A DNA stretch of 64,000 bases from an uncultured Gaiellaceae bacterium (lineage in GTDB: Bacteria > Actinomycetota > Thermoleophilia > Gaiellales > Gaiellaceae): NCBI GenBank assembly GCA_963707575.1, contig OY970171.1:290743-354742 (forward strand). The letters run 5' to 3'. The notes beneath the pieces were generated by a model. The model made no database searches and had not been told where the DNA came from. It saw nothing but the letters and a program-made list of their open reading frames with translations. Position 1 is the first letter of the stretch, and each line of letters opens with the position of its first letter. A program made the translations under genes and the position numbers. Below, piece by piece: positions 42,349 to 63,910 of the stretch.

Positions 42349-42377
42349 CAGCAGGCAGCAGCTTGGCACTTGCGGCC

Positions 42378-42412: not shown

Positions 42413-42423
42413 GTTGCCGAGCG

Positions 42424-44725: not shown

Positions 44726-45313
44726 TCAAGACTCCACGGCGAGCGATTTTCTTCCCTCGAGTTGCTCTCGGAGCCGGCCGAGGCACCGGGAGATGCGGCT
44801 CGCGATCGTCCCGGGCGGCAGGTCGAGCGCCTCGCCGATCGCGCGGTAGCTCTCGTCGCGCGTGAAGAAGCGGTCGAGGATCTCGCGGCAGTTCCCGGAC
44901 AACGTCTCGAGCGCGTCGCGGACGGCGAGCGCCTCCTCGAGCCGGTGCAGCTCGTCCGCGGCCTCCTCGGCGATCGTCTCCTCGTTCAGCTCGGCGTCGC
45001 GCGAGGTCAGGCGCAGGCGGTCGATGCAGAGCCGCCGCGTCAGCTGCGCCAGCCAGGGCCGGAACGCCTCGTCGTCGCGCAGCGTCCCCAGCCGCTCGTA
45101 GACGCGCGCGAACGTGTCCTGGAAGACGTCCTCGGCGTCCGAGGGCGGCAGGCGGAAGGCCTGTACGGCGATCGCGAACACGTAGCGGGAGTAGCGGTCG
45201 ACGAGCTCCGCCCACGCGGCCTCGTCGCCGGCGCGGCAGCGCGCCAGAACGTCGGCGTCGCCGCCCGCGCTCACCCCCTGAACGTCATCCACGAATGCGA
45301 CTCTAAACGCCAT
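44726..45313 (-). CDS. ECF-type RNA polymerase sigma-70 family factor
   Basis: Region 2 (VDRYSRYVFAIAV...EDVFQDTFARVY) and region 4 (SYRAIGEALDLPPGTIASRISRCL). Start placed at ATG 45313. Confidence 0.85.
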   Translation of the reverse strand: MAFRVAFVDDVQGVSAGGDADVLARCRAGDEAAWAELVDRYSRYVFAIAVQAFRLPPSDAEDVFQDTFARVYERLGTLRDDEAFRPWLAQLTRRLCIDRLRLTSRDAELNEETIAEEAADELHRLEEALAVRDALETLSGNCREILDRFFTRDESYRAIGEALDLPPGTIASRISRCLGRLREQLEGRKSLAVES

Positions 45314-45323
45314 CCCGCTGACT

Positions 45324-45693
45324 TTAGGCGTCGGCGGCGTCCCAGCGTCCGTCGGCCCGCGCCCGCTCGACCTCACGCAGCCCGGCGGGACGCATCTCGC
45401 CGCGCTCGATCAGCGCCTCGGCCCTGGCCCGGTTGAGCTTCGACCAGTTGCTTCGGGCCCGGCGGGGCGTGAACCGCTGCAGGTGCCAGTGCTCGTCGAG
45501 CCCCTTCGCCAGACCGTCGATCCAGCCGTGGCAGAGCGCAACCTCCACGGCCTCCGGGTAGGTGACGCTCGGGCTGGCCCGAGCCCTTCTTGGCCAGCTT
45601 GACCCAGACCTCCTGGGCCGCGGAGCCATGCTGCTCGAGCCAGGCGTGCCACGCCGCTCGGTCCTCGAAGGCGATCGGGTTGCCGGCCTCCAT
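45324..45693 (-). pseudogene. YdeI/OmpD-associated family gene interrupted by a +1 frameshift
   Basis: N-terminal part MEAGNPIAFEDRAAWHAWLEQHGSAAQEVWVKLAKKGSGQP is in one frame (track ORF 45373..45693). The C-terminal part SVTYPEAVEVALCHGWIDGL...FTPRRARSNWS...GEMRPAGL is in the next frame (track ORF 45324..45698). They join at the GGG run 45571..45573. Confidence 0.7.
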
Positions 45694-45715: not shown

Positions 45716-46676
45716 TCAGATCCAGTCGCGCCGCTTGGCCACGACGATCACGAGGGGTGCGAGGGCGACGATCAGTGCGACCACCACGTAGAAGATCCAG
45801 TTGGTCTCGAACAGCCCGACTTTGAAGTTCATCCCCAGCACGCCGGCCACGAGCGCTCCGGGCAGCAGGATCACCGAGGCGAGCGTCAGCACCTTCATGA
45901 TCTCGTTCGTGCGCTGGCCCGTCCGCGCGATCAGCACGTCGAAGGAGCCGACCACGGCCTCGCGCGCATCCCGCGCCTCCTGGACCGTCGACTCGAAGCG
46001 GCGCAGCAGCGCCTGGAAGCGCTCGCCCGAGTGGTGGTCTCCGAGCGCCTCCAGCTCGGGATAGGTGAGCGCCACGAGCGGCGAGCGGTGATGGGCGAGC
46101 GCGCGGCGCAGGACGCCGACCTCCTGACGAATCGCGATCAGACGTTCGATGTCCTCCTCGGGATCGGCGTCACCTCGCATCGCGCGAACCTCGAACTCCT
46201 CCAGGCGCTCCTCGATGCGCTCGAAGGCATCCGTGTACGCCCCGAGCACCCAGTCCAGCAGCGCCGCGAGGAACGACGGGCCGTCGAGCTCGCCCGGTGT
46301 GCCCCGAGCCGGAGACGCGCTCCGTGAACTCGTCCAGCACGGGCACCGGACGGTCGTGGGCGGTGAGCACCCAGTTCTCGCCCACGACGCACTCGAGCGG
46401 CACCAGCTTGCCGTCCTCCGCGTCGGGCGCGAACGCGGTCACGTGGATGTACGCGCCGTGATCGGAGAAGACGGCGGCCGCCGACGACGTCGACGCGAGC
46501 CCGTCGCGCGTGTCGTGATCGAGACCGAACTCGTCGGCGACCGCCTGCGCGCTCTCCTCCGAGGCGCGGTCGACGTCCACCCAGAGCAGCATCGAGCCAC
46601 GCAGCCGCCGCGGCCGCTCGGTGAGACCGCCGAGCTGGTGGACTCGGTCTCGATCGAAGAGGATCACGTCGCTCAC
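45716..46676 (-). pseudogene. corA: CorA-family magnesium/cobalt transporter interrupted by a +1 frameshift
   Basis: The N-terminal cytoplasmic domain is in ORF 46170..46676. The C-terminal part, with LGMNF (GMN motif) and two TM helices, is in ORF 45716..46249. Removing one C from the CCCC run 46302..46305 restores ...ERVSGSGTPGELDGPSFLAALLDWVLGAYTDAF... Confidence 0.75.
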
Positions 46677-46715: not shown

Positions 46716-47366
46716 CTACCCGGGCAGCGGGTCGTCGCGAGCGCCGACCACCGGGGCGTCGACCCGCGTTCGCGAGCGCTCGATCAGCACGGCCGCGGCG
46801 GCGAAGCAGACGAGCCCGACCGGGCCGATCGGCGGCGGGTGGATCGCGAACAGCGCTGCTCCTCCGACGAGCAACGTCACCGGCCAGCCCGCTCCGGAGC
46901 GGCGGAACGCGACCGCGGCGGCGATGGTCGCCACGACCCAGCTCAGGACAGTCACGATCAACGCGACCGACGGGTCGGTGACGAGCCAGTGCTCGTTGTA
47001 GTCCTGGATCGCGTCGGCGACGACGGCCTGCTCGGCGGCAGGCAGCCCGTTCGCGTACTGGACGAGGATGCCGGTGCCGACGCCGACGGACACCTCGTAG
47101 GCGGTGAAGAAGACGAGGAAGAAGGCAACGGCGACGCGGCTCACCAGCGCGGCGCCGCCTTCGAGGCCTCGCAACAGGACGAAGACGGCGATGCCCAGCA
47201 GCGGCAGCAGGAAGAGCATCCCGGCGTGCACGAACAACCAGGCGTCCACGTCGCCACGTACGCCCTCGTAGACGTTGCTGCCGCCGGCGGGATGCCACAA
47301 CAAGATGACTGCAAGCGCCAGCGGGATCGCCACGAGGAACGCGAGCCGAAGGCGGACGAAGGTCAT
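46716..47366 (-). CDS. hypothetical polytopic membrane protein
   Basis: 216 aa with about 6 TM helices. Starts 10 nt downstream of the hydrolase gene stop. Confidence 0.6.
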   Translation of the reverse strand: MTFVRLRLAFLVAIPLALAVILLWHPAGGSNVYEGVRGDVDAWLFVHAGMLFLLPLLGIAVFVLLRGLEGGAALVSRVAVAFFLVFFTAYEVSVGVGTGILVQYANGLPAAEQAVVADAIQDYNEHWLVTDPSVALIVTVLSWVVATIAAAVAFRRSGAGWPVTLLVGGAALFAIHPPPIGPVGLVCFAAAAVLIERSRTRVDAPVVGARDDPLPG

Positions 47367-47376
47367 CGGCTGCGCG

Positions 47377-48675
47377 TCAGCGCTCGAGCAGCGCGTCGTC
47401 GAGGAAGCCCACGACGCGGCGCTCGTACTCCTCCGGCGCGGTGGTGATCCCTGCGACGTGCTGGCCGTTCGGGACCTCCCAGATCCCCTTCGGCTCGCGC
47501 GCGGCCGCGTAGAAGCCCTGGTTCGGCACGGTCTCCGTGCCGCCCTGGCCGTGCTCGCCGTAGACGAAGAGCACGGGCGTCGGCGAGATCTTCGACACGT
47601 CGCTGTGCAGGCTCGGTGGAGGAAGCTGGTTCGTGAAAACGGTCAGGGCAGACGTGAGCACGACCTGGGTCGGGAAATCGAGGAGCCGATCCGACAGTCC
47701 GGGGTTGTCGAGCTCGTCGCGCAGCGACTGACCGCTCGCTCCCTCGGAGACGACGGCCGCGAACGCATCGGAGTCGGCCGCCGCGTGGATCAGCATCTCG
47801 CCGCCCACTGAGAGGCCGATCGCGCCGATCCGGTCGGGGTCGACGTCGTCGCGCGACTGGAGGTATGCGGCCGCGGCGTGCAGGTCGCGGTCGCCGCCCC
47901 AGCCGAAGATGTTCGGATCGCCGTCGCTCGCACCCTCGCCACGGCGGTCGAAGAGCAGCACCCCGTAGCCGTTGCGGACGAGCATCCGCGTCTGCTTCTG
48001 GGGGCCGGAGCGGCCGGGGACGACCATCACCGTCGCGCCGTTTCTCGACGGGACGAACCAGCCCTGGAGCCGGAGGCCGTCGGAGGTCGTGAACGACACG
48101 TCCTCGTGGGCGGCGCCGAGGTCCGGCGTCGGGACGTGCGCTCGGAACGTGTGCGTGACGACTTGGGCGATCACGACGGGGAACATGATCTGGGTCGCCA
48201 CGAGCAGGCCGGCGATCGTGAGCAGGAGGCGCCTTCCGTACCGCCACCGCCGGCTGTCGTCCGTGCGGCGTGTCCTCCAGAGCGTCACGATTCCGAGGCC
48301 GACGAGCACGACGCCGGCAGCGAGCGACAGCCACCCGGTGAAGTCGTCGCCCGAAGCGCCGCCGTTGATGGTGTAGTACACCGCCTCCACGCCGCTCGCG
48401 ATCCCGAAGACGCCGAGGACGAGAGCCCACGCCGCACGTGCGCCGGGCCGCAGGCGGCGATAGACGACTGCGATCCCCACGACGAGGGCGATCGGCAGGA
48501 GCATCAGGTAGTGGTCGCCCGCCGACACGCCCGGCTCGGGTTGGAGGAAGGCGTCGTCGACCAGGTGCAGGGCGACGACGGCAAGCGCCGTCTGCGCCAG
48601 CCCGGCCTCTGTCGCCACCCACGCCCACGCCTCGCCGAGCGACCGCGGGACGTCCTGGTGGGCGACGTGGGTCAC
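47377..48675 (-). CDS. membrane-anchored alpha/beta hydrolase (paralog 1)
   Basis: N-terminal ~4-TM domain, then an alpha/beta-hydrolase/dienelactone-hydrolase-like domain (LLFDRRGEGASDG, nucleophile elbow GLSVGG). GTG 48675 overlaps the mmpL stop (GTGA). Confidence 0.8.
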   Translation of the reverse strand: MTHVAHQDVPRSLGEAWAWVATEAGLAQTALAVVALHLVDDAFLQPEPGVSAGDHYLMLLPIALVVGIAVVYRRLRPGARAAWALVLGVFGIASGVEAVYYTINGGASGDDFTGWLSLAAGVVLVGLGIVTLWRTRRTDDSRRWRYGRRLLLTIAGLLVATQIMFPVVIAQVVTHTFRAHVPTPDLGAAHEDVSFTTSDGLRLQGWFVPSRNGATVMVVPGRSGPQKQTRMLVRNGYGVLLFDRRGEGASDGDPNIFGWGGDRDLHAAAAYLQSRDDVDPDRIGAIGLSVGGEMLIHAAADSDAFAAVVSEGASGQSLRDELDNPGLSDRLLDFPTQVVLTSALTVFTNQLPPPSLHSDVSKISPTPVLFVYGEHGQGGTETVPNQGFYAAAREPKGIWEVPNGQHVAGITTAPEEYERRVVGFLDDALLER

Positions 48676-50915
48676 GACGCGGGCACCGGCGGGGCCTCGA
48701 CGGGCTCGAGCTGCTCGCCGTGCTCGAGATGCGGCAGCCACTCCAGCCACTTCGGCAGGTACCAGTTCCACTCGCCGAGCAGCTTCATCGAGGCCGGCAG
48801 CAGCACGCCGCGGATGATCGTCGCGTCGATCAGGACCGCGGTCGCGAGCCCCACGCCGAACTGCTTGAAGATCATCATCCCGAGCGTGGCGAAGACGGAG
48901 AAGACGGCGACCATGACGATCGCCGCGCTCGTGACGACGCCGGCGGTCGACTTGATCCCGTGCGAGATCGCCTCGTCGGTCGTGGCGCCGCCGTCGTAGG
49001 TCTCGCGGATCCGGCTCAGGATGAAGACGTGGTAGTCCATCGAGAGCCCGAACAGGATCACGAACAGCAGGATGGGCAGGAACGGGTCGATCCCGGCCGT
49101 CGACTCGAAGTCGAGCAGCCCCTTGCCGTAGCCGTGCTGGAAGACGAGCACGAGCACGCCGTAGGCGGCGCCGACCGACAGCAGGTTGAGCACGATCGCC
49201 TTGAGCGCGATCACGATCGAGCGGAACGCGAACAGCATGAGCAGGAACGCGAAGACGAGCACGAATCCGAACACGAGCGGCACGACCGACCTCAGCTTCG
49301 TGCTGAAGTCCTTCGACTCCGCCGTCAGCCCGGTCACACCGGACTCGACGCCCGGGACGGCCCCCAGCGTTGCCGGAAGGATGTCGTCACGCAGCGCCGC
49401 CAGCGCGGCGTTCGAGGCGGCGTCGGTGCCGTTGCCGTCGATCGGGATGGCGATGTTGGCGACGGTCGCGTCCTCGTTCAGGTCGACGGTGATCGGCTGG
49501 TGCATCCCTCCCGCGGCGAGCGCGCTCTCCTTCAGGTCGTCGATCGCCGCACGCACCTCCGGTGCGTTCACGTTCGGCGCCCCGACGACGACGTTGGCGG
49601 GGATCTCCGTGCCGGGGAAGGCCGCCTGGAGCCGCTGGTAGGTCTGCATCACCGGGAGCGACTGCGGGTACGAGTCTGGGCCCGCGAAGACGGTGCGCAG
49701 CTGCAAGGCGGGGATGGCGAGCGTGACGAGCAACCCGCCGGCCAGGACGACCGACAGCACCGGACGGCGCAGGACGCGGTCGATGATCGCGCCCCAGATC
49801 CGGCCCTCGCCGCGGTCGCGCCGCAGTCGGCCGACGAACGGGACGCGTAGCCGGTCGACGTTGTCGCCGAGCTTGGACAGCACGGCGGGCAGGACCGTCA
49901 GGGAGCCGACCATGGCGACGGCGACGACGAGCATCGTCGCGAGCCCGAACGAGGCGAAGCCCTTGTCGCCCGTCAGGAACATGCCGCCCATGGCGACCAT
50001 CACGGTCAGCCCCGAGATGAGCACCGAGCGGCCCGACGTGGCGGCTGCGGCCTCGAGCGCCGCTTGCTCGCTGCGGCCGGCGGCCCGCTCCTCGCGCTCT
50101 CGCTTGAGGTAGAAGAGCGAGTAGTCGACCCCGACTGCGAGTCCGATCAGGAGCACGATCGCGGGCACCGACTCGTCCATCGGCAAGAGGTAGCTCAGCG
50201 GCCCGAGCAGCCCGAGCGTCGCGAACACGGCGGTCAGGGCGAGCAGCAACGGGATCCCGGCGGCCACGAGCGCTCCGAAGGCGATCACGAGGATGAGCAG
50301 GGTGATCGGGACGGAGATCATGCCGGCCTTCTTCAGGTCGTCCAAGAACGAGGCCGTCAACGCCTTGTCGGCGCTCGCATCCCCGAAGCCTCCGACGAAG
50401 AGCTCGGGGTGGGCGCTCTGGACCTTCTCGATCGAGGCAGTGACGGGATCGATCAGATCGGCCGCCTTGTCCGAGTCGCCGCGGATCTGGTACTCGACGA
50501 GGGCGGAGCGGCCGTCCTCGGAGATCTGGCCGGCGTTCTCGCTCACGAGCGGCGAGCGGATCTTCGTCACGGCGTCCTGAAGGACGAGCGCGGCCACGAC
50601 GTCGTCGATCGCCGCCTCGAAGGCAGGATCGTCGGCCTGCAGCGAGGAGCTCTGGACGAGCACGCTCTCGCCGGCCGGCTGCTCGAAGCCTTCGGCCAGA
50701 AGCTTGTCGACGCGGCCCGACTCGCCCGGGCCGGCGGTGTCGAGATCGATCGTCTGCGTCCCGACGGCAGTGCCGATCGCGAACGCGACCACGACGAACC
50801 CGAGCCAGCCAAAGATGGCGATCTTGCGGTGTCGCGCGCTCCAGCGCGCCATTCGGGCGGCGATGTTCGTCGCGGGCCTCTGGGTCGCCTCGTCGTGGTT
50901 CACACGCGTCGTCAT
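48672..50915 (-). CDS. MMPL family RND-type transporter
   Basis: 747 aa with 12-TM, two-periplasmic-loop architecture. VDYSLFYL and MDYHVFILSRIRE motifs. SD GAGAGGAG upstream. Confidence 0.9.
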   Translation of the reverse strand: MTTRVNHDEATQRPATNIAARMARWSARHRKIAIFGWLGFVVVAFAIGTAVGTQTIDLDTAGPGESGRVDKLLAEGFEQPAGESVLVQSSSLQADDPAFEAAIDDVVAALVLQDAVTKIRSPLVSENAGQISEDGRSALVEYQIRGDSDKAADLIDPVTASIEKVQSAHPELFVGGFGDASADKALTASFLDDLKKAGMISVPITLLILVIAFGALVAAGIPLLLALTAVFATLGLLGPLSYLLPMDESVPAIVLLIGLAVGVDYSLFYLKREREERAAGRSEQAALEAAAATSGRSVLISGLTVMVAMGGMFLTGDKGFASFGLATMLVVAVAMVGSLTVLPAVLSKLGDNVDRLRVPFVGRLRRDRGEGRIWGAIIDRVLRRPVLSVVLAGGLLVTLAIPALQLRTVFAGPDSYPQSLPVMQTYQRLQAAFPGTEIPANVVVGAPNVNAPEVRAAIDDLKESALAAGGMHQPITVDLNEDATVANIAIPIDGNGTDAASNAALAALRDDILPATLGAVPGVESGVTGLTAESKDFSTKLRSVVPLVFGFVLVFAFLLMLFAFRSIVIALKAIVLNLLSVGAAYGVLVLVFQHGYGKGLLDFESTAGIDPFLPILLFVILFGLSMDYHVFILSRIRETYDGGATTDEAISHGIKSTAGVVTSAAIVMVAVFSVFATLGMMIFKQFGVGLATAVLIDATIIRGVLLPASMKLLGEWNWYLPKWLEWLPHLEHGEQLEPVEAPPVPAS

Positions 50916-50944: not shown

Positions 50945-51017
50945 CTTCACGTTCGCACCGGGGCCGCCGCCCAGGAAGGCGGGAGACTTCCGGTTTCGAG
51001 GGGCGGGTTTCTGGTGG
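50945..51017 (-). promoter_or_regulatory. conserved upstream module, copy 1 (44-nt box + 22-nt spacer + CGTGAAG), upstream of mmpL
   Basis: Minus strand: CCACCAGAAACCCGCCCCTCGAAACCGGAAGTCTCCCGCCTTCC-N22-CGTGAAG. Begins immediately after the response-regulator stop codon. 29 nt separate it from the mmpL ATG. Confidence 0.6.
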
Positions 51018-51662
51018 CTACGAGCGCAGGTACATGAGCACCGCGAGCACGCGGCGCGACTCGGTGCCCGTGGAGGGCAGCCCGAGCTTTCCGAACACGC
51101 TGGAGACGTACTTCTCCGCCGAGCGCAGCGTGATCACGAGCTTGTCGGCGATCCCCTGGTTGGAGCGGCCCTCCGCCATCAGCTCGAGCACCTCCCGCTC
51201 GCGCGGCGTCAGCTCGGCGAGCGGGTCGTCGCTGCGCCGCTTCGCGATCAGGGTCGAGACGATGGTCGGATCGATGGCCGAGCCGCCGGCACCCACACGC
51301 CGGACGGCGCCGACGAACTCGTCCACATCGCCGATCCGGTCCTTGAGCAGGTAGCCCACGCCTTCCGCGGAGTCGGCGAGCAGCTTCATCGCCAGCCCCA
51401 GCTCCATGTACTGCGAGACCACGAGGACGCCCACCGACGGGTGGGCGGCGCGGATCTCGACGGCCGCCCGGATGCCCTCGTCGCTGTGGGTCGGTGGCAG
51501 GCGGATGTCGACGATCGCCACGTCGGGCGCGTAGCTGCGCACTTTCAGCATCAGCTCCTCGGCGGTCGCGCAACTGCCCACGACGTCGAGCCCTGCGCTC
51601 TCGAGCACATGTCCGATCCCCTCGCGCAGCAGCACGCTGTCCTCGGCGATCACGGCACGCAT
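51018..51662 (-). CDS. NarL/LuxR-family response regulator
   Basis: 214 aa. REC domain (VIAEDSVLLREG...VDIRLPP) plus a LuxR HTH (LTPREREVLELMAEGRSNQGIADKL.IT..S.EKYV). Confidence 0.9.
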   Translation of the reverse strand: MRAVIAEDSVLLREGIGHVLESAGLDVVGSCATAEELMLKVRSYAPDVAIVDIRLPPTHSDEGIRAAVEIRAAHPSVGVLVVSQYMELGLAMKLLADSAEGVGYLLKDRIGDVDEFVGAVRRVGAGGSAIDPTIVSTLIAKRRSDDPLAELTPREREVLELMAEGRSNQGIADKLVITLRSAEKYVSSVFGKLGLPSTGTESRRVLAVLMYLRS

Positions 51663-53431
51663 GGGATCTCCGCCCTCACCCGCGTTCCGCCTCCCTGCGG
51701 GCTCCACACCCGCAGGCGGCCGTCGAGCGTCTCGACGCGGTCGGCCAGCCCGCGCAGCCCCGTGCCGCGCTCGGTATCGGCGCCGCCCAGGCCGTCGTCG
51801 ACGACCTCGATCACGACGACGCCGTCCTCCCGTGTCACCTCGACGGACGCCGAGGACGCCGCCGCGTACTTGCCGATGTTCGTGAGGCACTCCGACACGA
51901 GGTAGTACGCGGCCACCTCGATCGCCTCGGACAGGCGGCCGTCGGTGGTCACCGTGAGCAGCACGGGGACCGGCGCCCGCACCGTGAGCGATTCGAGGGC
52001 GACCTCCAGCCCATGGCCGCTGACGACGGCCGGGTGCAGCCCGCGCGCGAGCTCGCGGAGCTCCTCGAGCGACGCGCCCACCTCGCGGCGTGCGAGATCG
52101 AGCCGCCGGCGCGCATCCTCGTCGTGGCCGAGCCGCTCCTCCAGCATCCGCAGCTCGAGCGACAGCGCGACGAGGCGCTGCTGCGCGCCGTCGTGCAGGT
52201 TCCGCTCCAGCCGCTGCCGCTCCTTCAGCCCTGCCTCGACGATCCGCGCCCGCGAGCCACGCAGCTCCAGGAGACGTGCCCGCAGGTCGACGTGCAGGCG
52301 TGCGTTCTCGATCGCGATCGCCGCCGCCGCTTTGACCGCGAACAGCAGCTCGGGCTCGTCGAGCAGCGACCGGTCGTGCACGAGCGCCGCCACGTGATCC
52401 CCGTCGCGGTCGATCAGAGTCGTGGCCTGGCGGCCGTTCCCGTCCGGGAGGTCGACGGGAAGAGCCTCCAGGTCGGCGTAGCGACCGAACTCCGGCAGCC
52501 AGTAGGCGAGCGTCGCGGAGGGGTCGCGCAGCGCACGTGCGATCGCTGCCCGCAGCTCGGCCGGAGCCGGATCGGAGCGCAGCTCGACGAACAGCTCTCC
52601 GACGGACGAGCGGGCCAGGCGCGAGTGCAGCAGACCAACCAGGAAGGCGATGGGCGCCAGCCCGAGCGTGACGAAGGTGGCCCAGCGGATCTGCGGGACC
52701 GCGGGGCCGCCGAAGACGAGGGAAACGAAGAGGAACGAGATCATCAGCAGCCCGAGCGCGAACGCATCGACGAGCAGCGCGAGCGAGCGGCGCAAGGGCC
52801 GCCCGGAACGCCGTCTGCGGACGGCGAGGACGGCGACGCCGGCCAGGCACGCGCCGCTCACGATCAGAAGCTGCGTGTGCGTGGCCCAGTCGGTCACGCC
52901 CTGGTTCGCCGAGAGCTCGAGCAGGTTGCGCGGCCCGAAGCCGCCGAAGGCCAGCCGGAAGAACTGGAGCCCGATCGCGGCCGCGTAGGCGGTGCCCACG
53001 AGACGGCGCTCGAACCGCGTTTCCAGCCGGCCGCTCGGGAAGGCCAAGAACACGTGCAGGAAGAGCACGGGCGGCAGCAGGTCGAAGACCTGCCCGATCG
53101 TGAAGGCGACGTCGTTCGTCGTCCACGAGAGCGTCGTGACGTAGTTCACGAAGCCCGCCACGATCATCAGCGGCCCGAACCGGCTCTCGGGCCGCCGCCA
53201 CCACGCGATCAGGCCGCAGAAGACGTAGGAGAGGGTGATCCAGTCCGCGAGCAGCGCGATCACGAGCGGCTCGCCCAGCTCGGTCCCGATCGCCTCGTTC
53301 CGCAGCGCGAAGACCAGCGAGGACGCGCCGGCGGCACAGCCGGCGAGCGTGAGCGCCCAGAGCGCGGCGGGCGTCGGCGGTCGGCCGGCGACGGGTTCAG
53401 CGAGAGAAGCGGGCGCAGCGATGGTCGCCAT
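51650..53431 (-). CDS. sensor histidine kinase (HisKA_3/NarX-LiaS type) with large polytopic N-terminal membrane domain
   Basis: 593 aa with about 8 TM helices. H-box ERNLHDGAQQRLVAL. HATPase_c (CLTNIGKYA, DDGLGGA, GTGLRGLADRV). 13-nt overlap with the RR gene. Confidence 0.85.
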   Translation of the reverse strand: MATIAAPASLAEPVAGRPPTPAALWALTLAGCAAGASSLVFALRNEAIGTELGEPLVIALLADWITLSYVFCGLIAWWRRPESRFGPLMIVAGFVNYVTTLSWTTNDVAFTIGQVFDLLPPVLFLHVFLAFPSGRLETRFERRLVGTAYAAAIGLQFFRLAFGGFGPRNLLELSANQGVTDWATHTQLLIVSGACLAGVAVLAVRRRRSGRPLRRSLALLVDAFALGLLMISFLFVSLVFGGPAVPQIRWATFVTLGLAPIAFLVGLLHSRLARSSVGELFVELRSDPAPAELRAAIARALRDPSATLAYWLPEFGRYADLEALPVDLPDGNGRQATTLIDRDGDHVAALVHDRSLLDEPELLFAVKAAAAIAIENARLHVDLRARLLELRGSRARIVEAGLKERQRLERNLHDGAQQRLVALSLELRMLEERLGHDEDARRRLDLARREVGASLEELRELARGLHPAVVSGHGLEVALESLTVRAPVPVLLTVTTDGRLSEAIEVAAYYLVSECLTNIGKYAAASSASVEVTREDGVVVIEVVDDGLGGADTERGTGLRGLADRVETLDGRLRVWSPQGGGTRVRAEIPCVP

Positions 53432-53952: not shown

Positions 53953-53983
53953 CACGACCCTCCGGCAGGAATAGGATCGCGTC

Positions 53984-54400
53984 ATGCGGCTGCGCAAGGA
54001 CGCGAAGATCGAGTTGATCGCACGGGTGCCGCTCTTCGGGCACTGCACGAAGAAGGAGCTCGGAGCGATCGCGGCGCGGGCCGACGAGCTGTCGCTGCCC
54101 GAGGGTAGGGAGCTGGTGCGGCAGGGCGAGCGCGGCCGGGAGTTCGTCGTGATCGTCGACGGGGCAGCCGACGTGCGCAGGAACGGACGCAAGATCAACG
54201 AGCTCGGGCGCGGAGACTTCCTCGGCGAGATCGCCCTGCTCTCGGGTGCCCCGCGCACCGCCACCGTCACGACGACGACCCCGACGCGGATCCTCGTCCT
54301 TACCGACAGCGCCTTCAAGAGCGTCACCACCGAGCTGCCGTCCGTGCAGACGAGGCTGCTCGCCGCGCTCTCGGCGCGCCTGCACGACGACGCCTTCTAG
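53984..54400 (+). CDS. stand-alone cyclic-nucleotide-binding domain protein
   Basis: 138 aa. Motifs: VPLFGHCTKKELGAIA, GDFLGEIALLSGAPRTATV. Confidence 0.85.
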   Translation: MRLRKDAKIELIARVPLFGHCTKKELGAIAARADELSLPEGRELVRQGERGREFVVIVDGAADVRRNGRKINELGRGDFLGEIALLSGAPRTATVTTTTPTRILVLTDSAFKSVTTELPSVQTRLLAALSARLHDDAF

Positions 54401-57564: not shown

Positions 57565-57679
57565 CTCATCACCTCTCGGGCTGGTGTGTTCGGTTCATGA
57601 AGCGTTAGACGGCCTTGCGGGCGTGAACTCATCGGTGCTGCGCCGATGAGTTTCGTCCAGGCCCGAGGTCTTGTTTGGG

Positions 57680-59057: not shown

Positions 59058-61613
59058 CTACTCGTACTGGAGGGCCTCCAGCACGTTCAGCCTCGACGCA
59101 CGCCGTGCCGGCAGGATCGCGGCCAGCATCCCCGCCAGGATCGCGACGAAGACGAAGACTGCGAGCGTCCCGGCCGGCACCGACAGAACGATCCCGTAGT
59201 CGGAGAGGGCCAGCGTCGTGATGAACGCCAGGAACAGCCCGACGGCGATTCCGAGTGCCGCCCCGATCAACGCGGTGACGATGCTCTCGTGCCGGATCAT
59301 CCTGCGCACCTGGCGGCGGGTCATGCCGATCGCCCGCAGCATCCCCAGCTCGCGTGTTCGCTCGAAGACCGAGAGCACGAGCGTGTTGATGACGCCGAAC
59401 AGGCTGACGATGACGGACAGCCCGAGCAGGACGTAGAGCACGTTCAGCGTCGTCGTCAGCTCGGCGAGCTGACCGTCCTTGAACTCGTCGCGCGTCTCGA
59501 CCGAGACGTCGGGGAACGCGACGAGCGCCTGCTCGAGCCTGGCGGTGTTCGCGTCGGACGGGCCGCCGCTGATGTTCAGCAGCGTCAGCTCGTTGTCGTG
59601 ATTCGTGAACGCGTCGTCGAAGGTCTCCTTGGAGATCGTCACGCCGTCGCTGAAGGGGGAGCCGCCCTTCGGCTCGTCGAAGACTCCCTCGATCTGCAGC
59701 TCGAGCGTCTGCCCCGCCGGCGTCTCGACGGTGATGGGGGAGCCGACCTTCAGCCCGTTCTCCTCGGCGTAGCGGTCGGTGACGAACGCGCCGTCGCGGC
59801 CGAGCCTGCCGGGCACAGTGGTGGAGCCCTCCGTCCAGGCCATCTCGACGGTCCTGCTGAGGTTGCGGTCGACGCCCGTGACGTGGATCGCGTCGCCGTT
59901 GCGCTTGGCGTCGGCACCGCGGATCTCGGAGACCACGGTCCCCGGCTCACCGGCCACGGTCTCCGCGGCCTGGCTCGACACCTTCTCGGCGTCGGCCGTG
60001 AGTGCATAGTCGGCCACGAAGAGCTCGTTCACGGCACTCGTGAACGACGTGCGCACGCCCTGGCCGAGCACAGCGACGAAGGTGATCAGGGCCAGCCCGA
60101 TCATCACTGCAGCCGCGGTGGAGGCGGTGCGGGTCGGGTTCCGCACCGCGTTCTGGCGTGCCAGCGCGCCGGCGGTGCCGCCGAGCCGCGCGCCGGGGGC
60201 TCCCAGCACGAAGGCAAGCGGACGCACCACGCGTGAGGCGACCATCGACACGCTCACGAAGAGCAGCAGCACGCCGAGCACGAGCGCGACGATGCGCACG
60301 ATCGTCTCGAGCCCACTCGCGAACACGCCGTAGGAGAAGAGCGCGAGCGCGGCCACGAAGACGACCGCGGACACGCGCACCGCATAGCGCGCGAAGCGCG
60401 ATGCAGGCATGACGGCGCCCTCGCGAACCGCCGCGATCGGCGGGATCCGGGTCGCGCGAACTGCGGGCCGAAGGCTCGCCAGGAGCGCGATCAGCGTCCC
60501 GACGGCGAGGCTGACGATGATCGTCCGGGGCGCGAAGACGAGCCCGCCACTTGGCAGCTCGATCCCCAGCGTCTCCAAGAGCGCCATCAGCCCCACGGCG
60601 ATGCCGAGCCCGAGGAAGAGGCCCAGCAACGAGCCGACGATCCCGATTGCCACCGACTCGAGCACCACCGAGCGGAGCACCTGGCCCCGCGAGGCGCCGA
60701 GCGTCCGCAGCGTGGCGAGCTCGCGCATCCGTTGCGCGACGGTGATCGCGAGCGTGTTCGCGATCACGAAGCTGCCGACGAAGAGCGAGATCCCGCCGAA
60801 GCCGAGCAGGACGTACTTGATGATGTCCATGCCCTCCTGGGTCTCCTTGCTGTCCGCGGCCGCCTGGGCCTCCGCGCCCTGGACCTGCGTCGTCTCGGAG
60901 AGGAGCGGCTGGATCTGGGTCACGAGCTCGGCCTCCGAGACGCCGGGATCGGCGCCGACACGGATCAGGTCGAACTTGGCCCGCTTGTCGAACAGCTTCT
61001 GGGCGGTGCCGAGATCGAAGACGGAGATGGACGACCCGCCGAGCGAGTCGGCCGCGCCGAACGTGACGATCCCGGTGATCCGGTACTGGTCGACTGCGCC
61101 GCTGCCGAACGCCCCCACCGTCTGCCCGACGGTGAAGTCCTGCTTCTCGGCGGTCGCCTTGTCGATCGCGATCTCGCCGTCGCCGCTGGGCCAATCGCCC
61201 TGGGCGAGCTCGAGCGGGTTCAGGCTCTGGTCGGCCGAGGCCTCGACCCCCCAGGCGATACCGCTACCGGCCTTGCCGATCGGCGTTCCGTCCTTGTCGA
61301 CCAGTCTGGCCTCGTCCTCGATCGAGCCCTGCGCGACGCGAACGCCCGGCAGGGTCTCGACCTCGCGCAGGACGGCGGCCGAGAAGGCCGGTGCCTCCGT
61401 CTCGCCGTCGTCGGTCTCGATCGCCTGCTTCGAGCTGATGATCGCGTCCGTCGCTGCGTAGGACTCGTCGTAGACGCTGTCGAAGCTCTTGCTCAACGTG
61501 TCGGTGAGCACGTAGCTGCCGCTGATCATCGCGACGCCGAGCACGATCGCAAAGCCGGTCAGGATAGCGCGCAGCTTGCGGCCGAGCAACCCTTTGAGCG
61601 CGACCCCGATCAT
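59058..61613 (-). CDS. ABC transporter permease, FtsX/MacB-type (two FtsX modules, 851 aa)
   Basis: N-terminal TM, large extracytoplasmic domain and FtsX 3-TM bundle, all duplicated. Motifs: [15 protein letters not shown] and [15 protein letters not shown]. Confidence 0.9.
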
Positions 61614-62383
61614 GGCGCCGCCACCTCCTCCAGCGCCGCGAGGATCTCGTGCGTCGTCGAGGGCCCCACGTCCTTGACGATCTGGCCGTCGGCGAGGAAG
61701 AGGATGCGATCGGCAATCGCCGCCGCGTGCGGATCGTGCGTGACCATCACGGTCGTCTGGCCGTAGCCGTCGACGGACTCGCGCAGGAGCGAGAGGATCT
61801 CCGTCCCGGTACGCGAGTCCAGGTTGCCGGTCGGTTCGTCGGCGAACATCACCGTCGGCTTCGAGACGAGGGCCCGAGCGATCGCGACGCGCTGCTGCTG
61901 GCCGCCGGAGAGCTCCGAGGGCCGGTGGGTGAGCCGGTCCTTGAGCCCGACCGTCGTCGTCAGCTCGTCGAGCCAGGCCGGATCCACCTTCTCACCGGCG
62001 ATCGAGAGCGGCAGGACGATATTCTCCTTCGCGCTCAGCATCGGCAGCAGGTTGAAGAACTGGAAGATGAAGCCGATGTGTTCGCGCCGCAGTTTCGTCA
62101 GCTGCGTGTCGTTCAGCTCCCCGAGCGCCGTCCCGGAGATCCAGACGGCGCCTTCGGTCGGCTTGTCGAGGCCGGCGAAGATGTGCATCAGCGTCGACTT
62201 GCCGGACCCCGACGGGCCCATGACGGCGGTGAGCTTGCCGCTCAGCACCTCCACCGAGACGCCGCGCAGAGCGTCGACGGCGGTCTCGCCCTCCCCGTAG
62301 CGCCTGGTGATGCCCGCGCCTGCGACGACCGGGACGGAACGTGCCGGCGCCTGCTGATCGCTCTGGACGACAACCGATCTCAT
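61610..62383 (-). CDS. ABC transporter ATP-binding protein (MacB/LolD-type)
   Basis: Walker [10 protein letters not shown], signature [15 protein letters not shown], Walker [13 protein letters not shown]. Start at ATG 62383 preceded by GGAAGGGGAG. Confidence 0.9.
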
Positions 62384-62431: not shown

Positions 62432-62505
62432 CTTCCACGCTCCCACCCGCGGCGCCCGCGCGGAAGGCGGGTATCTGGCGGTTCGAGGGGCGGGTTTTCT
62501 GGTGT
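62432..62505 (-). promoter_or_regulatory. conserved upstream module, copy 2, upstream of the MacB-type ABC operon
   Basis: Minus strand: ACACCAGAAAACCCGCCCCTCGAACCGCCAGATACCCGCCTTCC-N22-CGTGGAAG. Starts 5 nt after the hydrolase-2 stop. 48 nt separate it from the ATG. Confidence 0.6.
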
Positions 62506-62510
62506 CTCGG

Positions 62511-63833
62511 CTACCCGCCGAGGAGCGCGCCGTCGAGGAAGTCGACGACGCGGCGCTCGTACTCGGCGGGCCGTACGTCGATGCCGCCCGTGTGCTCGGC
62601 CCCGGGCACCTTCCAGATCGACTTGGGCTCGCCGGCGGCGGCGAAGTACTTCGGCTGCCTGACGTCTTCGCCGCCCATCCCCGGCTCCGTGTAGATCAGG
62701 AAGACGGAGCGCGGTGCGATCCGGCCGATGCGGTCGACGATGCGGGGCGGCGGCGCGTGGTTCGCGAAGACGGTCGCCGCGGAGCGCATCACGACCTGGA
62801 GCGGCGCGAACACGATGCCCTCCGGCCCGGGCACATCGGCGTCGCCGAGCGGGAAGCCGGCTCCCTCCGAGACGACCGCCTTGAAGGCATCGGACTCCGC
62901 CGCGGCCACGAGCAGGATCTCACCGCCGACCGACGAGCCGAAGCCGCCGATCCGGTCGGGATCCACATCGGACCGGCCCTGCAGGTACTCGGCGCCCGCG
63001 ATCAGGTCGCGGTCGCCGGCCCAGCGGACGAGATCGCCTTCGCTCCCGCCCTGCCCGCGCGGATCGAGCAGCAGCACGCCGTACCCGTTCCGAGCCAGCA
63101 TCCGCGCCTCCTTGACCGCTGAGGCACCGGGGAAGACGACGACCGCGGCGCGGTTCTTGGAGGGAACGTAGGTCGCCGTGAGCTCGAGCGAGTCGCTCGT
63201 CGTGATCGTGACCGTCTCGTGCGGCAGGCCGATCGGATCCGCCGGCGCCGTACGGCCGATGTGGGTGTAGCCGTACGCGAAGGCGATGGGGAAGACCACG
63301 AGGACCAGGATCGCCAGCGCCGCGACTGCGCCGACGACCGTCGCCAGCGCGCGACGCGCCAAGCGGCGCCGCCGCGACCCGCCGCGCTTGCGCGCCTTCC
63401 AGAGCGTGACCGGCCCGGTCCCGATCAGGATCGCGCCCGCCGCGATCGCGAGCAGGCCGGTGTAGTGGGCGCCCTCGGCACTGCCGTCGAGCACGTAGTA
63501 GGCGCCCGGGAAGCCGACGGCGATCCCGAGCGCGCCGAACGTCATCGCGGTCGCGGCACGCAGCCACGCCGGCAGCCGCGGGTAGGCGGCGGCGACGCCC
63601 AGCAGGATCGCAACGGGGATGAGCCCGCTCGCCAGGTGGTCCGCGCCGGAGGTCCCGGGCTGGGGTTGCAGATAGTTCTCGTCGACCACGTGGAGCGCTA
63701 TCGCACCGAGCGCGAGCCGCACCAGGCCGATCTCCGTACGCGCGAAAGCGGCCGCTCGGGAGAGCCCGCTGCGCCACGCTACTCCGGATGCGCTGCTAGC
63801 GTCGGGCGGATTCGCGAGCGAGTGGTCGGTCAT
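62511..63833 (-). CDS. membrane-anchored alpha/beta hydrolase (paralog 2)
   Basis: Collinear with 47377..48675: LHVVDENYLQPQPG vs LHLVDDAFLQPEPG, LLLDPRGQGGSEGD, GSSVGGE, and C-terminal EYERRVVDFLDGALL. ATG 63833; an alternative GTG lies at 63845. Confidence 0.8.
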   Translation of the reverse strand: MTDHSLANPPDASSASGVAWRSGLSRAAAFARTEIGLVRLALGAIALHVVDENYLQPQPGTSGADHLASGLIPVAILLGVAAAYPRLPAWLRAATAMTFGALGIAVGFPGAYYVLDGSAEGAHYTGLLAIAAGAILIGTGPVTLWKARKRGGSRRRRLARRALATVVGAVAALAILVLVVFPIAFAYGYTHIGRTAPADPIGLPHETVTITTSDSLELTATYVPSKNRAAVVVFPGASAVKEARMLARNGYGVLLLDPRGQGGSEGDLVRWAGDRDLIAGAEYLQGRSDVDPDRIGGFGSSVGGEILLVAAAESDAFKAVVSEGAGFPLGDADVPGPEGIVFAPLQVVMRSAATVFANHAPPPRIVDRIGRIAPRSVFLIYTEPGMGGEDVRQPKYFAAAGEPKSIWKVPGAEHTGGIDVRPAEYERRVVDFLDGALLGG

Positions 63834-63837
63834 CCCG

Positions 63838-63910
63838 ATCCACACTCGCAGCCCTGCTCGCCGGGTGGAAGGCGGGAGACCGCCCGTTCACGGGTACGGG
63901 TTTCTGGTGT
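63838..63910 (-). promoter_or_regulatory. conserved upstream module, copy 3, upstream of hydrolase paralog 2
   Basis: Minus strand: ACACCAGAAACCCGTACCCGTGAACGGGCGGTCTCCCGCCTTCC-N22-TGTGGAT. Only 4 nt separate it from ATG 63833. Confidence 0.6.

What the first reader, a model, noticed from the sequence alone, without database searches (positions are those of the whole stretch)
50945..51017. Conserved ~73-nt upstream module present three times: candidate regulon of the adjacent two-component system
Seen: three same-orientation copies on the minus strand at 50945..51017, 62432..62505 and 63838..63910. Each has a 44-nt box:
- CCACCAGAAACCCGCCCCTCGAAACCGGAAGTCTCCCGCCTTCC
- ACACCAGAAAACCCGCCCCTCGAACCGCCAGATACCCGCCTTCC
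- ACACCAGAAACCCGTACCCGTGAACGGGCGGTCTCCCGCCTTCC

The invariant parts are CACCAGAAA, CCCG and CCCGCCTTCC. Each box is followed by exactly 22 non-conserved nt, then CGTGAAG / CGTGGAAG / TGTGGAT.

The distance from that last box to the start codon varies (29, 48 and 4 nt). That fits a promoter with an upstream activator site better than a translated or leader-RNA element.

The copies precede mmpL-hydrolase1, the MacB-type ABC operon and hydrolase2. The NarL-type RR/HK pair (51018..53431) sits directly upstream of copy 1.

Inference: this is an envelope-stress or efflux regulon driven by this RR, or by one of the two ECF sigmas in the window.
Basis: partly seen in the sequence, partly recalled or inferred. 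Interest (0 to 1): 0.7.

Follow-up and report, generated by a model that had tools for sequence, protein, structure and literature searches.

The report
Response-regulator promoter module, three copies
The repeated ~80-base sequence is a conserved promoter with binding boxes, most likely for the neighbouring two-component response regulator, that switches on membrane-defence genes in uncultured soil Actinomycetota; many of its target proteins also share an unexplained seven-residue N-terminal tag.

Summary
There are three minus-strand copies of CACCAGAAA-N24-CCCGCCTTCC, where shuffles expect none.

The module is a DNA-level promoter and operator, not an RNA element.
- Box A (AGAAAmCCG) and box B (aaGTyTCCCGnCTTCC) form a direct repeat AG-N4-CCG, 23-24 bp apart.
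- They are followed by an invariant 16-nt spacer of free sequence.
- An extended -10-like TGnGAnnnT comes next.
- Start codons lie either 6-8 nt behind it with no Shine-Dalgarno (leaderless), or about 30 nt behind it with GAGAGGAG.

The element tracks the adjacent NarL-type response regulator (RR).
- In metagenome loci collected by RR similarity alone, 29 of 36 loci with RR at 72% identity or more carry it 4-25 nt after the RR stop.
- None of 38 loci with more distant RRs carry it (p=3e-14).
- Those paralogues carry a different module and a different recognition helix (EKHVTS instead of EKYVSS).

Targets are MmpL, a MacB-type ABC transporter, membrane alpha/beta-hydrolases, and elsewhere MprF-like, beta-lactamase-like and CPBP proteins. 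This is an envelope-defence regulon.

An ECF-sigma reading is not supported.

Unexpected: most leadered targets carry a conserved N-terminal peptide MKTRVIQ(D/N)(D/E)P, and they include non-homologous proteins. Selection acts on the peptide, not the RNA.

RR binding and transcription start sites remain untested.

The parts
50949..51016 (-). Copy 1 promoter module. Box A CACCAGAAACCCG at 51016-51004. Box B AAGTCTCCCGCCTTCC at 50989-50974. 16-nt spacer at 50973-50958. TGC at 50957-50955. -10-like GAACGT at 50954-50949. Begins 1 nt after the RR stop codon (51020-51018). Followed by a 33-nt leader with GAGAGGAG and the mmpL ATG at 50915.
62437..62504 (-). Copy 2 promoter module. Box A CACCAGAAAACCCG at 62504-62491. 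Box B CAGATACCCGCCTTCC at 62477-62462. Spacer at 62461-62446. TGG at 62445-62443. -10-like GAGCGT at 62442-62437. Starts 6 nt after the hydrolase2 stop (62513-62511). A 53-nt leader precedes the ABC ATPase ATG at 62383, whose N-terminus is [11 protein letters not shown].
63842..63909 (-). Copy 3 promoter module. Box A at 63909-63897. Box B at 63882-63867. Spacer at 63866-63851. TGC at 63850-63848. -10-like GAGTGT at 63847-63842. The hydrolase2 ATG (63833) lies 8 nt behind the hexamer with no Shine-Dalgarno, so the mRNA is predicted to be leaderless. The module lies inside the last ~68 codons of the upstream FTR1-like ORF, whose stop is at 63798-63796.
51018..51662 (-). NarL/FixJ-type response regulator (REC + GerE HTH). 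Recognition-helix signature ITLRSAEKYVSSVF, plus a C-terminal tail ...ESRRVLAVLMYLRS. Proposed binder of boxes A and B.
51650..53431 (-). Histidine kinase. The N-terminal ~270 aa hold 6-8 hydrophobic segments with short loops. Then a cytoplasmic linker, HisKA_3 and HATPase_c.
48672..50915 (-). Target 1a: MmpL-family RND transporter. Its N-terminus MTTRVNHDE is a degenerate form of the MKTRVIQ tag.
47377..48650 (-). Target 1b: membrane-anchored alpha/beta-hydrolase ('hydrolase1'), 50% identical to hydrolase2. It directly follows mmpL. The start is approximate.
61610..62383 (-). Target 2a: ABC ATPase with an N-terminal tag variant, MRSVVVQ.
59058..61613 (-). Target 2b: MacB-type permease (MacB_PCD + FtsX, duplicated). 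The TIGR02960-family ECF sigma at 57979-58992 follows 65 nt downstream and may be co-transcribed.
62511..63833 (-). Target 3: membrane-anchored alpha/beta-hydrolase ('hydrolase2'; S9/S15/Hydrolase_4 hits), predicted to be leaderless.

Best explanation
Each copy is an activator-dependent promoter.

Anatomy. If the invariant T of the hexamer is taken as -7 (inferred), the layout is:
- TGn-GAnnnT forms an extended -10 at -15 to -7.
- A 16-bp spacer of free sequence follows upstream.
- Box B (aaGTyTCCCGnCTTCC) covers -47 to -32, and its AG-N4-CCG core is centred near -41.5.
- Box A (CACC-AGAAAmCCG) covers about -74 to -62, centred near -65.

The two boxes are a direct repeat, AG-N4-CCG, 23-24 bp apart.

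Proposed mechanism (inferred):
- The multi-pass membrane histidine kinase senses a membrane or envelope perturbation.
- It phosphorylates the NarL-type RR encoded immediately upstream.
- RR~P binds boxes A and B. By occupying the -35 region of a promoter with only a vestigial -35 (TTCC) and a sub-optimal -10 (G instead of T at -12), it recruits RNA polymerase in class-II fashion.
- In this window that switches on mmpL-hydrolase1, the MacB-type ABC operon and hydrolase2.

Transcripts are either leaderless (hydrolase2) or carry a ~25-45 nt leader with a strong Shine-Dalgarno.

Shown: the anatomy, its conservation, co-inheritance with the RR, and the absence of RNA structure.

Inferred: the -10 assignment and numbering, RR binding, and activation rather than repression.
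For: Observation and chance:
- 3 copies where 0 are expected.

Synteny:
- An exact-pattern scan of 596 Gb of genomes gave 24 true family loci in Thermoleophilia, Gaiellaceae and 'Actinomycetes' MAGs.
- In 21 of them, plus weaker second copies in L045 and L046, the box sits directly behind an orthologous RR with the HK upstream. MmpL with or without a hydrolase lies downstream in most.

Element-blind test:
- 80 metagenome loci were fetched by RR similarity only.
- With RR at 72% identity or more, 29 of 36 loci have the element 4-25 nt after the RR.
- With RR below 72%, 0 of 38 do (Fisher p=2.7e-14).

Specificity:
- Element-positive RRs carry the helix signature ITLRAVEKYVSS...(D/E)SRRV.
- Element-negative paralogues carry TERAVEKHVTS...DHRRV and have a different module after their stop: GGTGCGG-N4-CCGCACC, then cAGACGCC, then GCCgCATT, N16-17, and (G/C)AnnnT.
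- L156 is only 66% identical overall, yet it has the KYVSS signature and an element elsewhere in its locus, about 3.8 kb upstream of the RR.

Promoter anatomy in 56 distinct instances:
- A66 and T70 are 100% conserved; T62 and G63 are 96-98%.
- The spacer length is fixed at 16 with low information content.
- This matches the ANNNT -10 of actinobacterial promoters, where VANNNT variants are weaker than TANNNT (PMC6448022).

Position relative to genes:
- In 9 or more instances an ATG without a Shine-Dalgarno follows the hexamer by 6-8 nt, as expected for leaderless mRNAs. The boxes therefore lie upstream of the transcript.

No RNA structure:
- RNAalifold predicts 0 pairs for the boxes and for leader plus early codons.
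- Rfam finds nothing.

Regulon content:
- MmpL, MacB-ABC, hydrolases, MprF-like, beta-lactamase/PBP-like and CPBP protease.
Against: - There is no experimental datum: no mapped TSS and no binding assay. The two RNA-like soil runs that touch the locus are too sparse and too divergent to show 5' ends.
- The 23-24 bp offset of the half-sites is not an integral number of helical turns, and their spacing varies by 1 bp.
- The -12 position is G in 95% of instances. That is unusual for a housekeeping -10 and could point to a dedicated sigma factor.
- A strict sigma-70 consensus scan finds no promoter at copy 1.
- Seven of 36 close RR loci lack a full-scoring adjacent element. Four of these have degenerate or partial copies, one has it 729 nt away, one has little room, and one (L102) has none.
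- Adjacency is association, not proof of binding.
- No copy was found upstream of the HK-RR genes in the window, so autoregulation, if any, is not through this box.
Confidence: 0.72

Rival explanations
1. The module is the promoter of an alternative (ECF) sigma factor. Candidates are the TIGR02960-family sigma at 57979-58992, just downstream of the MacB operon, or the sigma at 44726-45409. Box B would act as its -35 and TGnGAnnnT as its -10.
For: - Two ECF sigma genes are in the window.
- One lies 65 nt behind the permease of the copy-2 operon, an arrangement compatible with autoregulation.
- G at -12 is 95% conserved and box B is nearly invariant, as for a specialised sigma.
Against: - No sigma gene is syntenic with the element in the related loci. 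Only L009 has a weak 28%-identity hit, about 5 kb away. The RR, by contrast, is adjacent almost always.
- The -10 keeps A at -11 and T at -7 with TGn. It does not keep a CGT core: C68 is 54% and G69 is 45%.
- With box B read as CCTTCC, the distance to the hexamer is 19 bp, longer than the usual 16-17 bp.
- The module type switches with the RR recognition helix.
Confidence: 0.08
2. It is a promoter plus operator, but the boxes are bound by some other transcription factor encoded elsewhere, or by the adjacent RR acting as a repressor rather than an activator.
For: - Box B overlaps the -35 region, a position from which a bound protein can also occlude RNA polymerase.
- Binding was not tested.
- Only 8-20 kb around each element could be inspected.
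Against: - The RR/HK pair is the only regulator consistently adjacent.
- The helix signature co-varies with the module type.
- The poor -35 and the non-T at -12 are typical of promoters that need an activator (inference).
Confidence: 0.1
3. It is an RNA-level element: a 5' leader or riboswitch, an attenuator, or the 3' UTR or terminator of the upstream gene.
For: - Every copy starts within a few nt of the stop codon of the upstream gene, or inside its tail.
- The variable centre of the box often contains short self-complementary runs, for example CCTCG-GAA-CGAGG in L086.
Against: - RNAalifold predicts no consensus pair in 56 instances, nor in leader plus first codons.
- There are no Rfam hits at gathering threshold.
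- No terminator-like site was found at copy 1.
- In leaderless targets the start codon is 6-8 nt after the hexamer, so the boxes cannot be part of that mRNA's leader.
Confidence: 0.03
4. It is a dispersed repeat or mobile or recombination element (MITE/REP-like, or a cassette attachment site) that happens to sit between genes.
For: - Several copies lie within 13 kb.
- The sequence is present in many genomes.
- The promoter plus first codons appear on non-homologous genes, which suggests past recombination.
Against: - There are only 3 copies in 64 kb, and usually 1-3 per fetched locus.
- Each copy has the same orientation as the gene behind it, at a fixed distance from a -10.
- The genomic position (after the RR) is conserved across genomes whose RRs have diverged to about 72% identity.
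- I saw no terminal inverted repeats or target duplications in the alignments, though I ran no dedicated test.
Confidence: 0.02

Closest known systems
Envelope-stress two-component regulons with NarL-type regulators (LiaFSR/VraSR), and the MadRS antimicrobial-peptide defence system of Enterococcus faecalis
   Same: - The RR is REC + GerE. VraR is among the nearest solved relatives (E=3e-19), and the best NCBIfam model is MadR.
- Targets include an ABC transporter and envelope-modifying functions. mprF and dlt are discussed for MadRS/LiaFSR in PMC12262736, and an MprF-like target is found here.
   Different: - The RR scores 113.6 bits against the MadR cut-off of 300, so it is not a member.
- I saw no LiaF-like gene next to the pair (not systematically tested).
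- The HK has 6-8 membrane segments.
- The cis motif is unrelated to any I know.
- The host is uncultured Thermoleophilia or Gaiellaceae.
ChrSA-hrtBA of Corynebacterium (heme-responsive)
   Same: - A HisKA_3 kinase with a multi-pass membrane sensor lacking large loops, proposed to sense within the membrane.
- A cognate RR that activates the adjacent hrtBA exporter operon (PMC5812335).
   Different: - The signal here is unknown.
- Several promoters and different target classes are controlled (MmpL, hydrolases, MprF-like and others).
- No orthology was shown.
DevR/DosR of Mycobacterium tuberculosis
   Same: - It is the nearest solved homologue of the RR (3c3w, E=4e-23).
- From memory, not tested here: DevR activates from tandem sites, the proximal one overlapping -35.
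   Different: - The DosR box is a 20-bp palindrome (from memory); here the boxes are a direct repeat 23-24 bp apart.
- The regulon content is different.
- The kinase is membrane-embedded rather than a soluble GAF kinase.
Class II activator-dependent promoters (activator centred at -41.5, weak -35, extended -10)
   Same: - Box B is centred near -41.5 if the hexamer T is -7.
- The -35 is vestigial.
- A TGn extension is present.
   Different: The numbering rests on inferred transcription start sites, and the activator family differs from CRP/FNR.

Membership tests
Two-component (NarL/FixJ-type) regulon promoter | Adjacent response regulator with a receiver domain and a LuxR/GerE HTH | tested here: met
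   Pfam Response_reg 2.6e-13 and GerE 4.7e-12. PDB relatives are DevR, VraR, DesR and NarL.
Two-component (NarL/FixJ-type) regulon promoter | Cognate HisKA_3 histidine kinase in the same operon | tested here: met
   HisKA_3 and HATPase_c. HK orthologues lie upstream of the RR in related loci.
Two-component (NarL/FixJ-type) regulon promoter | Cis element co-inherited with the regulator orthogroup and changing with its DNA-reading helix | tested here: met
   29/36 versus 0/38, p=2.7e-14. The EKYVSS versus EKHVTS signature matches the module type.
Two-component (NarL/FixJ-type) regulon promoter | Repeated half-sites for a dimeric or oligomeric regulator | tested here: inconclusive
   A direct repeat AG-N4-CCG lies at columns 7-15 and 31-39, offset 23-24 bp. 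The offset is not a whole number of helical turns, and no palindrome is present.
Two-component (NarL/FixJ-type) regulon promoter | Physical binding of the phosphorylated regulator, and regulator-dependent transcription | not testable with these tools
   Needs EMSA, footprinting, DAP-seq or reporter assays.
Housekeeping-type (ANNNT) bacterial promoter | -10 hexamer with invariant A at position 2 and T at position 6 | tested here: met
   A66 and T70 are conserved in 56/56 instances, with TG upstream in 96-98%. Compare ANNNT in 79% of M. smegmatis promoters (PMC6448022).
Housekeeping-type (ANNNT) bacterial promoter | -35 hexamer close to TTGACA at 16-18 bp | tested here: not met
   Only TTCCnn is found at the 17-bp position. 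The consensus scan finds no promoter at copy 1.
Housekeeping-type (ANNNT) bacterial promoter | Mapped transcription start 6-8 nt downstream of the hexamer | tested here: inconclusive
   Indirect only: start codons without a Shine-Dalgarno lie 6-8 nt behind the hexamer in 9 or more instances. The RNA runs were uninformative.
ECF sigma-dependent promoter | Conserved AAC-type -35 and CGT-type -10 at 16-17 bp, with the sigma gene linked to the promoter | tested here: not met
   C68 is 54% and G69 is 45%. No syntenic sigma gene is found in related loci.
Cis-regulatory RNA (riboswitch, leader or attenuator) | Conserved secondary structure with covariation, or a match to a described family | tested here: not met
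   RNAalifold predicts 0 pairs. Rfam gives 0 hits at gathering score.
MadRS / LiaFSR named families | Score above the curated family cut-off | tested here: not met
   MadR scores 113.6 bits against a cut-off of 300. For the HK, MadS scores 41 against 500 and LiaS 46 against 450.

The most novel reading that the evidence does not exclude
The module is not only a promoter. Together with it, most leadered targets inherit a conserved cytoplasmic N-terminal peptide, M-K-T-R-V-I-Q-(D/N)-(D/E)-P, followed by a variable acidic, proline-rich linker.

The peptide heads non-homologous proteins: MmpL, ABC ATPase, MprF-like, beta-lactamase/PBP-like, CPBP protease and a 220-aa membrane protein. It also occurs in variant form (METIVIQ, MQTVLIQ) on targets of the paralogous two-component systems.

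The most novel reading is that this is a regulon-wide post-translational handle. It could be a degron that clears the stress proteins when the signal ends, or a docking peptide through which the kinase or a partner senses its own output. If so, transcriptional and post-translational control would be packaged in one portable 5' cassette.
Probability: 0.3. Interest if true: 0.72.

Novelty: new member of a known kind. Interest (0 to 1): 0.5.

Why it matters
- It gives a precise, testable binding site, promoter architecture and first regulon for a two-component system of Thermoleophilia and Gaiellaceae. This is an abundant, almost uncultured soil lineage in which no promoter or regulon has, to my knowledge, been defined.
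- The regulon content points to an intrinsic membrane and antimicrobial defence response: MmpL, MacB-type ABC, MprF-like, beta-lactamase/PBP-like, CPBP and membrane hydrolases.
- The paired signatures, recognition helix and module type, across paralogous systems offer a natural data set for learning the DNA-recognition code of this RR family.
- The shared N-terminal tag, if functional, would be an unusual coupling of a promoter with a protein-level signal.

Tried and rejected
- **Rfam, whole window at gathering score:** nothing.
- **First pattern search:** it used the wrong gap length (25) and found nothing; corrected.
- **The individual boxes alone:** CCCGCCTTCC or CACCAGAAA with 1 mismatch are not enriched over shuffles. 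Only the combination is significant.
- **Exact-pattern genome scan:** most of the 91 loci are unrelated coincidences, chiefly one conserved coding sequence in Rhodobacteraceae and relatives. These were discarded.
- **Sigma-70 consensus and terminator scan at copy 1:** nothing.
- **RNA structure of the boxes, and of leader plus early codons:** no consensus pairs.
- **Public RNA runs:** two soil runs hold fragments at 90-95% likeness. They show no usable 5' ends.
- **Covariation of the variable base in the two half-sites (columns 16 and 40):** no general association. Only one small clade (L095, L106, L110; helix ERHVST) has CCGG in both boxes.
- **Search for the tag as a peptide:**
  - The query was too short for the protein search.
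  - A profile of N-termini returned only short fragments, mostly ABC-ATPase N-termini with or without tag variants.
  - A literature string search for MKTRVIQ gave 0 papers.
- **ORF 47363-48628 as hydrolase1:** wrong frame.
- **ORF 45716-46249 as the second ECF sigma:** my initial guess was wrong; it is CorA-like.
- **L092:** the public contig encoding the identical RR is not identical to the window. The spacer of copy 1 differs.

Full report
**1. Observation**

The composite pattern CACCAGAAA-N24-CCCGCCTTCC occurs 3 times even with 3 mismatches allowed. In 100 dinucleotide-preserving shuffles it occurs 0.00 times on average. Either box alone is not enriched. A profile HMM built from 27 copies finds no further copy in the 64 kb; the next best hit has E=3.7.

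Gene calls around the copies were confirmed:
- NarL-type RR at 51018-51662
- HisKA_3 kinase at 51650-53431
- MmpL at 48672-50915
- ABC ATPase at 61610-62383
- MacB/FtsX permease at 59058-61613
- alpha/beta-hydrolase at 62511-63833
- ECF sigmas at 57979-58992 (TIGR02960 family) and 44726-45409

These rest. 'Hydrolase1' is real but lies in the frame 47377 to about 48650, where it is 50% identical to hydrolase2. The ORF 47363-48628 is the wrong frame.

**2. Where else the box occurs**

An exact-pattern scan of one genome per species (596 Gb) returned 91 loci. Reading them showed two groups:
- Unrelated coincidences, mostly one conserved coding sequence of Rhodobacteraceae and relatives.
- 24 true relatives, all in MAGs labelled Thermoleophilia, Gaiellaceae, Thermoleophilaceae or 'uncultured Actinomycetes'.

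In 21 of the 24, the box starts a few nt after the stop codon of an orthologue of the window's RR (74-94% identity). The HK lies upstream, and in most an MmpL follows, often with a hydrolase2-like gene.

The remaining three fit the same picture:
- L028 is the hydrolase2/ABC copy of the same Gaiellaceae MAG that holds L086, the closest relative found.
- L045 and L046 carry a strong copy divergent from HK-RR, plus a weaker copy behind the RR.

**3. An element-blind test**

The scan above selected for the box. I therefore fetched 80 metagenome loci by similarity to the RR protein alone, at 62-95% identity, and searched them with the HMM. Only loci with at least 115 nt after the RR were counted.

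| RR identity | Loci with the element 4-25 nt after the RR | Loci counted |
|---|---|---|
| 72% or more | 29 | 36 |
| below 72% | 0 | 38 |

Fisher's exact test gives p=2.7e-14.

Of the 7 exceptions in the first group:
- 4 have degenerate or partial copies (L094, L105, L115, L121).
- L136 has the element 729 nt away, behind an inserted gene.
- L130 has almost no room.
- Only L102 has nothing.

**4. The paralogues are informative**

RRs at 62-71% identity are followed by a different but related module:
- a palindrome GGTGCGG-N4-CCGCACC,
- then cAGACGCC,
- then GCCgCATT,
- then N16-17 and (G/C)AnnnT, often with an ATG 6-8 nt later.

The recognition helices split the same way. Element-positive RRs read ITLRAVEKYVSSIFGKLGLPS.G..SRRVLAVL. 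The others read (V/I)TERAVEKHVTSIF.KLRLP....DHRRVLAVL.

L156 is only 66% identical overall. It nevertheless has the KYVSS signature and carries an element elsewhere in its locus, about 3.8 kb upstream of the RR.

This co-variation of a DNA-reading helix with the cis module is the best available argument that the adjacent RR is the binder. It remains an inference.

**5. Anatomy**

I aligned 56 distinct instances. Column conservation is as follows:
- Invariant or nearly so: A7 G8 A9 A10 A11, C13 C14 G15, C18 C19. This is box A, (g)aCACC-AGAAAmCCGnCCC.
- Low information in the centre, which also varies in length by 1 nt.
- Then G32 T33, C37 C38 G39, C41 T42 T43 C44 C45. This is box B, aaGTyTCCCGnCTTCC.
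- 16 columns of low information whose length is constant in all but one assembly.
- T62 G63 n G65 A66 n n n T70, with A66 and T70 conserved in 56 of 56.

AG-N4-CCG occurs in both boxes in the same internal register, 23-24 bp apart, so the boxes are a direct repeat.

TGn-GAnnnT has the register of an extended -10. In Mycobacterium smegmatis, 79% of mapped promoters have ANNNT at -13 to -6. VANNNT promoters are weaker than TANNNT ones, and 24% of transcripts are leaderless (PMC6448022).

With T70 taken as -7 (my assumption), the AG-N4-CCG core of box B is centred near -41.5. Box A is centred near -65. The -35 position holds only TTCC.

**6. DNA element, not RNA**

Downstream of the hexamer there are two classes.
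- Leaderless class. An ATG follows after 6-8 nt with no Shine-Dalgarno. This covers window copy 3/hydrolase2, L028, the 220-aa membrane protein in L001, L011, L012, L027, L047 and L080, and an ABC ATPase in L111. That is the geometry of leaderless mRNAs, and it places the boxes upstream of the transcript.
- Leadered class. About 26-34 nt follow, with GAGAGGAG 5-7 nt before the ATG (53 nt in window copy 2).

RNAalifold predicts no consensus base pair in the boxes or in leader plus first 11 codons. Rfam has no hit. No terminator-like site lies at copy 1. Two RNA-like soil runs touch the locus only with sparse contigs at 90-95% likeness and give no 5' ends.

**7. Which regulator?**

The ECF alternative is weak, for three reasons:
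- No sigma gene travels with the element.
- The -10 lacks a conserved CGT.
- The module type follows the RR helix.

It is not excluded. The TIGR02960-family sigma sits 65 nt behind the copy-2 operon, and G at -12 is oddly conserved.

The kinase has 6-8 hydrophobic segments with short loops and no recognisable extracytoplasmic domain. It resembles kinases proposed to sense within the membrane, such as ChrS and HrrS (PMC5812335).

The RR's nearest solved relatives are DevR, VraR, DesR and NarL. Its best NCBIfam models (MadR, MctR, NarL) are all far below their cut-offs.

**8. Regulon theme**

In the window the targets are mmpL-hydrolase1, ABC ATPase-MacB permease (possibly with the ECF sigma), and hydrolase2.

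In other genomes the same module also precedes:
- an MprF-like protein (LPG_synthase_C; L045 and L046),
- membrane-anchored beta-lactamase/PBP-like proteins (L060, L096),
- a CPBP/Rce1-like protease (L096),
- a 220-aa membrane protein of unknown family.

This is the gene repertoire of envelope and antimicrobial defence systems. MadRS and LiaFSR are a comparison, with mprF and dlt named as resistance genes in PMC12262736. Which signal is sensed is unknown.

**9. Unexpected: a shared N-terminal peptide**

Nearly all leadered targets begin M-K-T-R-V-I-Q-(D/N)-(D/E)-P, followed by a variable acidic, proline-rich linker.

The peptide heads non-homologous proteins: MmpL, ABC ATPase, MprF-like, beta-lactamase-like, CPBP and relatives of the 220-aa protein. 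Variants occur on targets of the paralogous systems (METIVIQ, MQTVLIQ, MKSVVIQ). The window has two forms: ABC ATPase [11 protein letters not shown], and MmpL MTTRVNHDE, which is degenerate.

Occurrence:
- In the family loci, 52 of 53 occurrences of the motif at an ORF start lie directly behind a module.
- In 512 kb of unrelated control loci the loose motif occurs 5 times, none of them in such a context.

Selection acts on the peptide:
- Synonymous codons vary freely: Thr is ACG, ACC, ACA or ACT; Arg is CGT, CGC, CGA or CGG; Val is GTG or GTC.
- In codons 2-7, 59% of differing codon pairs are synonymous, against 6% in codons 11-20. The set was selected by the motif, so the first figure is inflated.
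- No RNA structure is conserved there.

Leaderless targets lack the tag. Homologous ABC ATPase N-termini exist both with and without it. The string is absent from the searchable literature.

I cannot explain it. Possibilities are a degron, a docking peptide for the kinase or another partner, or a nascent-peptide effect. None was testable here.

**10. Verdict**

The ECF-sigma alternative is unlikely.

As a kind of thing it is ordinary: a response-regulator-controlled promoter family. As an instance it is new, and unusually well defined for an uncultured lineage. The shared N-terminal tag is the part that deserves a closer look.

Noticed in passing
window 62363-62383 (-) and 50895-50915 (-); L023, L045, L060, L068, L096, L110, L123 and others (first codons of the genes behind the module): A conserved N-terminal peptide MKTRVIQ(D/N)(D/E)P, followed by a variable acidic/Pro linker, heads non-homologous target proteins: MmpL, ABC ATPase, MprF-like, beta-lactamase-like, CPBP and a 220-aa membrane protein. 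The window forms are [11 protein letters not shown] (ABC ATPase) and MTTRVNHDE (MmpL). Synonymous sites vary, so selection is on the peptide. Leaderless targets lack it.
   Followed up: partly
L131, L133, L137, L138, L140-L142, L144, L146, L155, L162, L164, L166, L170, L172 (first ~100 nt after the RR stop): Paralogous RRs (62-71% identity, helix EKHVTS...DHRRV) are followed by a different module: a palindrome GGTGCGG-N4-CCGCACC, then cAGACGCC, then GCCgCATT, N16-17 and (G/C)AnnnT, often with a leaderless ATG. The arms of the palindrome co-vary between loci (GTGCGT/ACGCAC, GTGCGG/CCGCAC).
   Followed up: partly
window 63796-64000 (-): The upstream gene is FTR1 iron-permease-like; its orthologue in L028 is about 879 aa. 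It has no stop codon before copy 3. Its reading frame runs through the whole module and 38 nt into hydrolase2, with the stop at 63798-63796. The same arrangement is found in L028.
   Followed up: partly
window 47363-48628 (-) versus 47377-48771 (-): Two long overlapping ORFs lie on the same strand. The Arg/Pro-rich one (47363-48628) is a wrong-frame artefact of the 71% G+C. The other is the real membrane-anchored alpha/beta-hydrolase, a paralogue of hydrolase2.
   Followed up: yes
L060 and L096 (1-462, -) N-termini; L110: Beyond the tag, the beta-lactamase-like proteins also share the MmpL-type juxtamembrane motif (..NLAGR.G.W.ARYRKI..) before their first membrane helix. L110 shows this motif in front of an ABC ATPase. 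This suggests that whole 5' cassettes (promoter, tag, anchor) have been swapped between genes. An assembly artefact in L110 is not excluded.
   Followed up: no
window 51018-51095 (-), RR residues ~190-214: The RR has a conserved ~25-residue extension beyond the GerE domain (LPSTGTESRRVLAVLMYLRS). The motif (D/E)SRRV versus DHRRV separates the orthogroup from its paralogues as cleanly as the recognition helix does.
   Followed up: no
window 57650-57970 (+) and 57979-58992 (-): A STAS-domain protein (anti-sigma-antagonist-like) is encoded convergently, right beside the TIGR02960-family ECF sigma that follows the MacB operon.
   Followed up: no
window 27906-36326 (-) and 35983-39894 (+): One open frame of 2806 codons has PD40 beta-propeller repeats and extensin-like low-complexity sequence. 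The neighbouring ~1300-aa protein has adenylate/guanylate cyclase, AAA_16 and TPR domains. Several cNMP-binding proteins are also in the window (53975-54400; an MFS-cNMP fusion at 40372-42423).
   Followed up: no
L092 versus window 50958-50973: The public contig that encodes the identical RR protein (ENA ERZ25039494 contig_17453) differs from the window in the 16-nt spacer of copy 1 (tcgcc... versus tgggc...), while the boxes and the -10 are identical. Variation at strain level is thus confined to the spacer.
   Followed up: no
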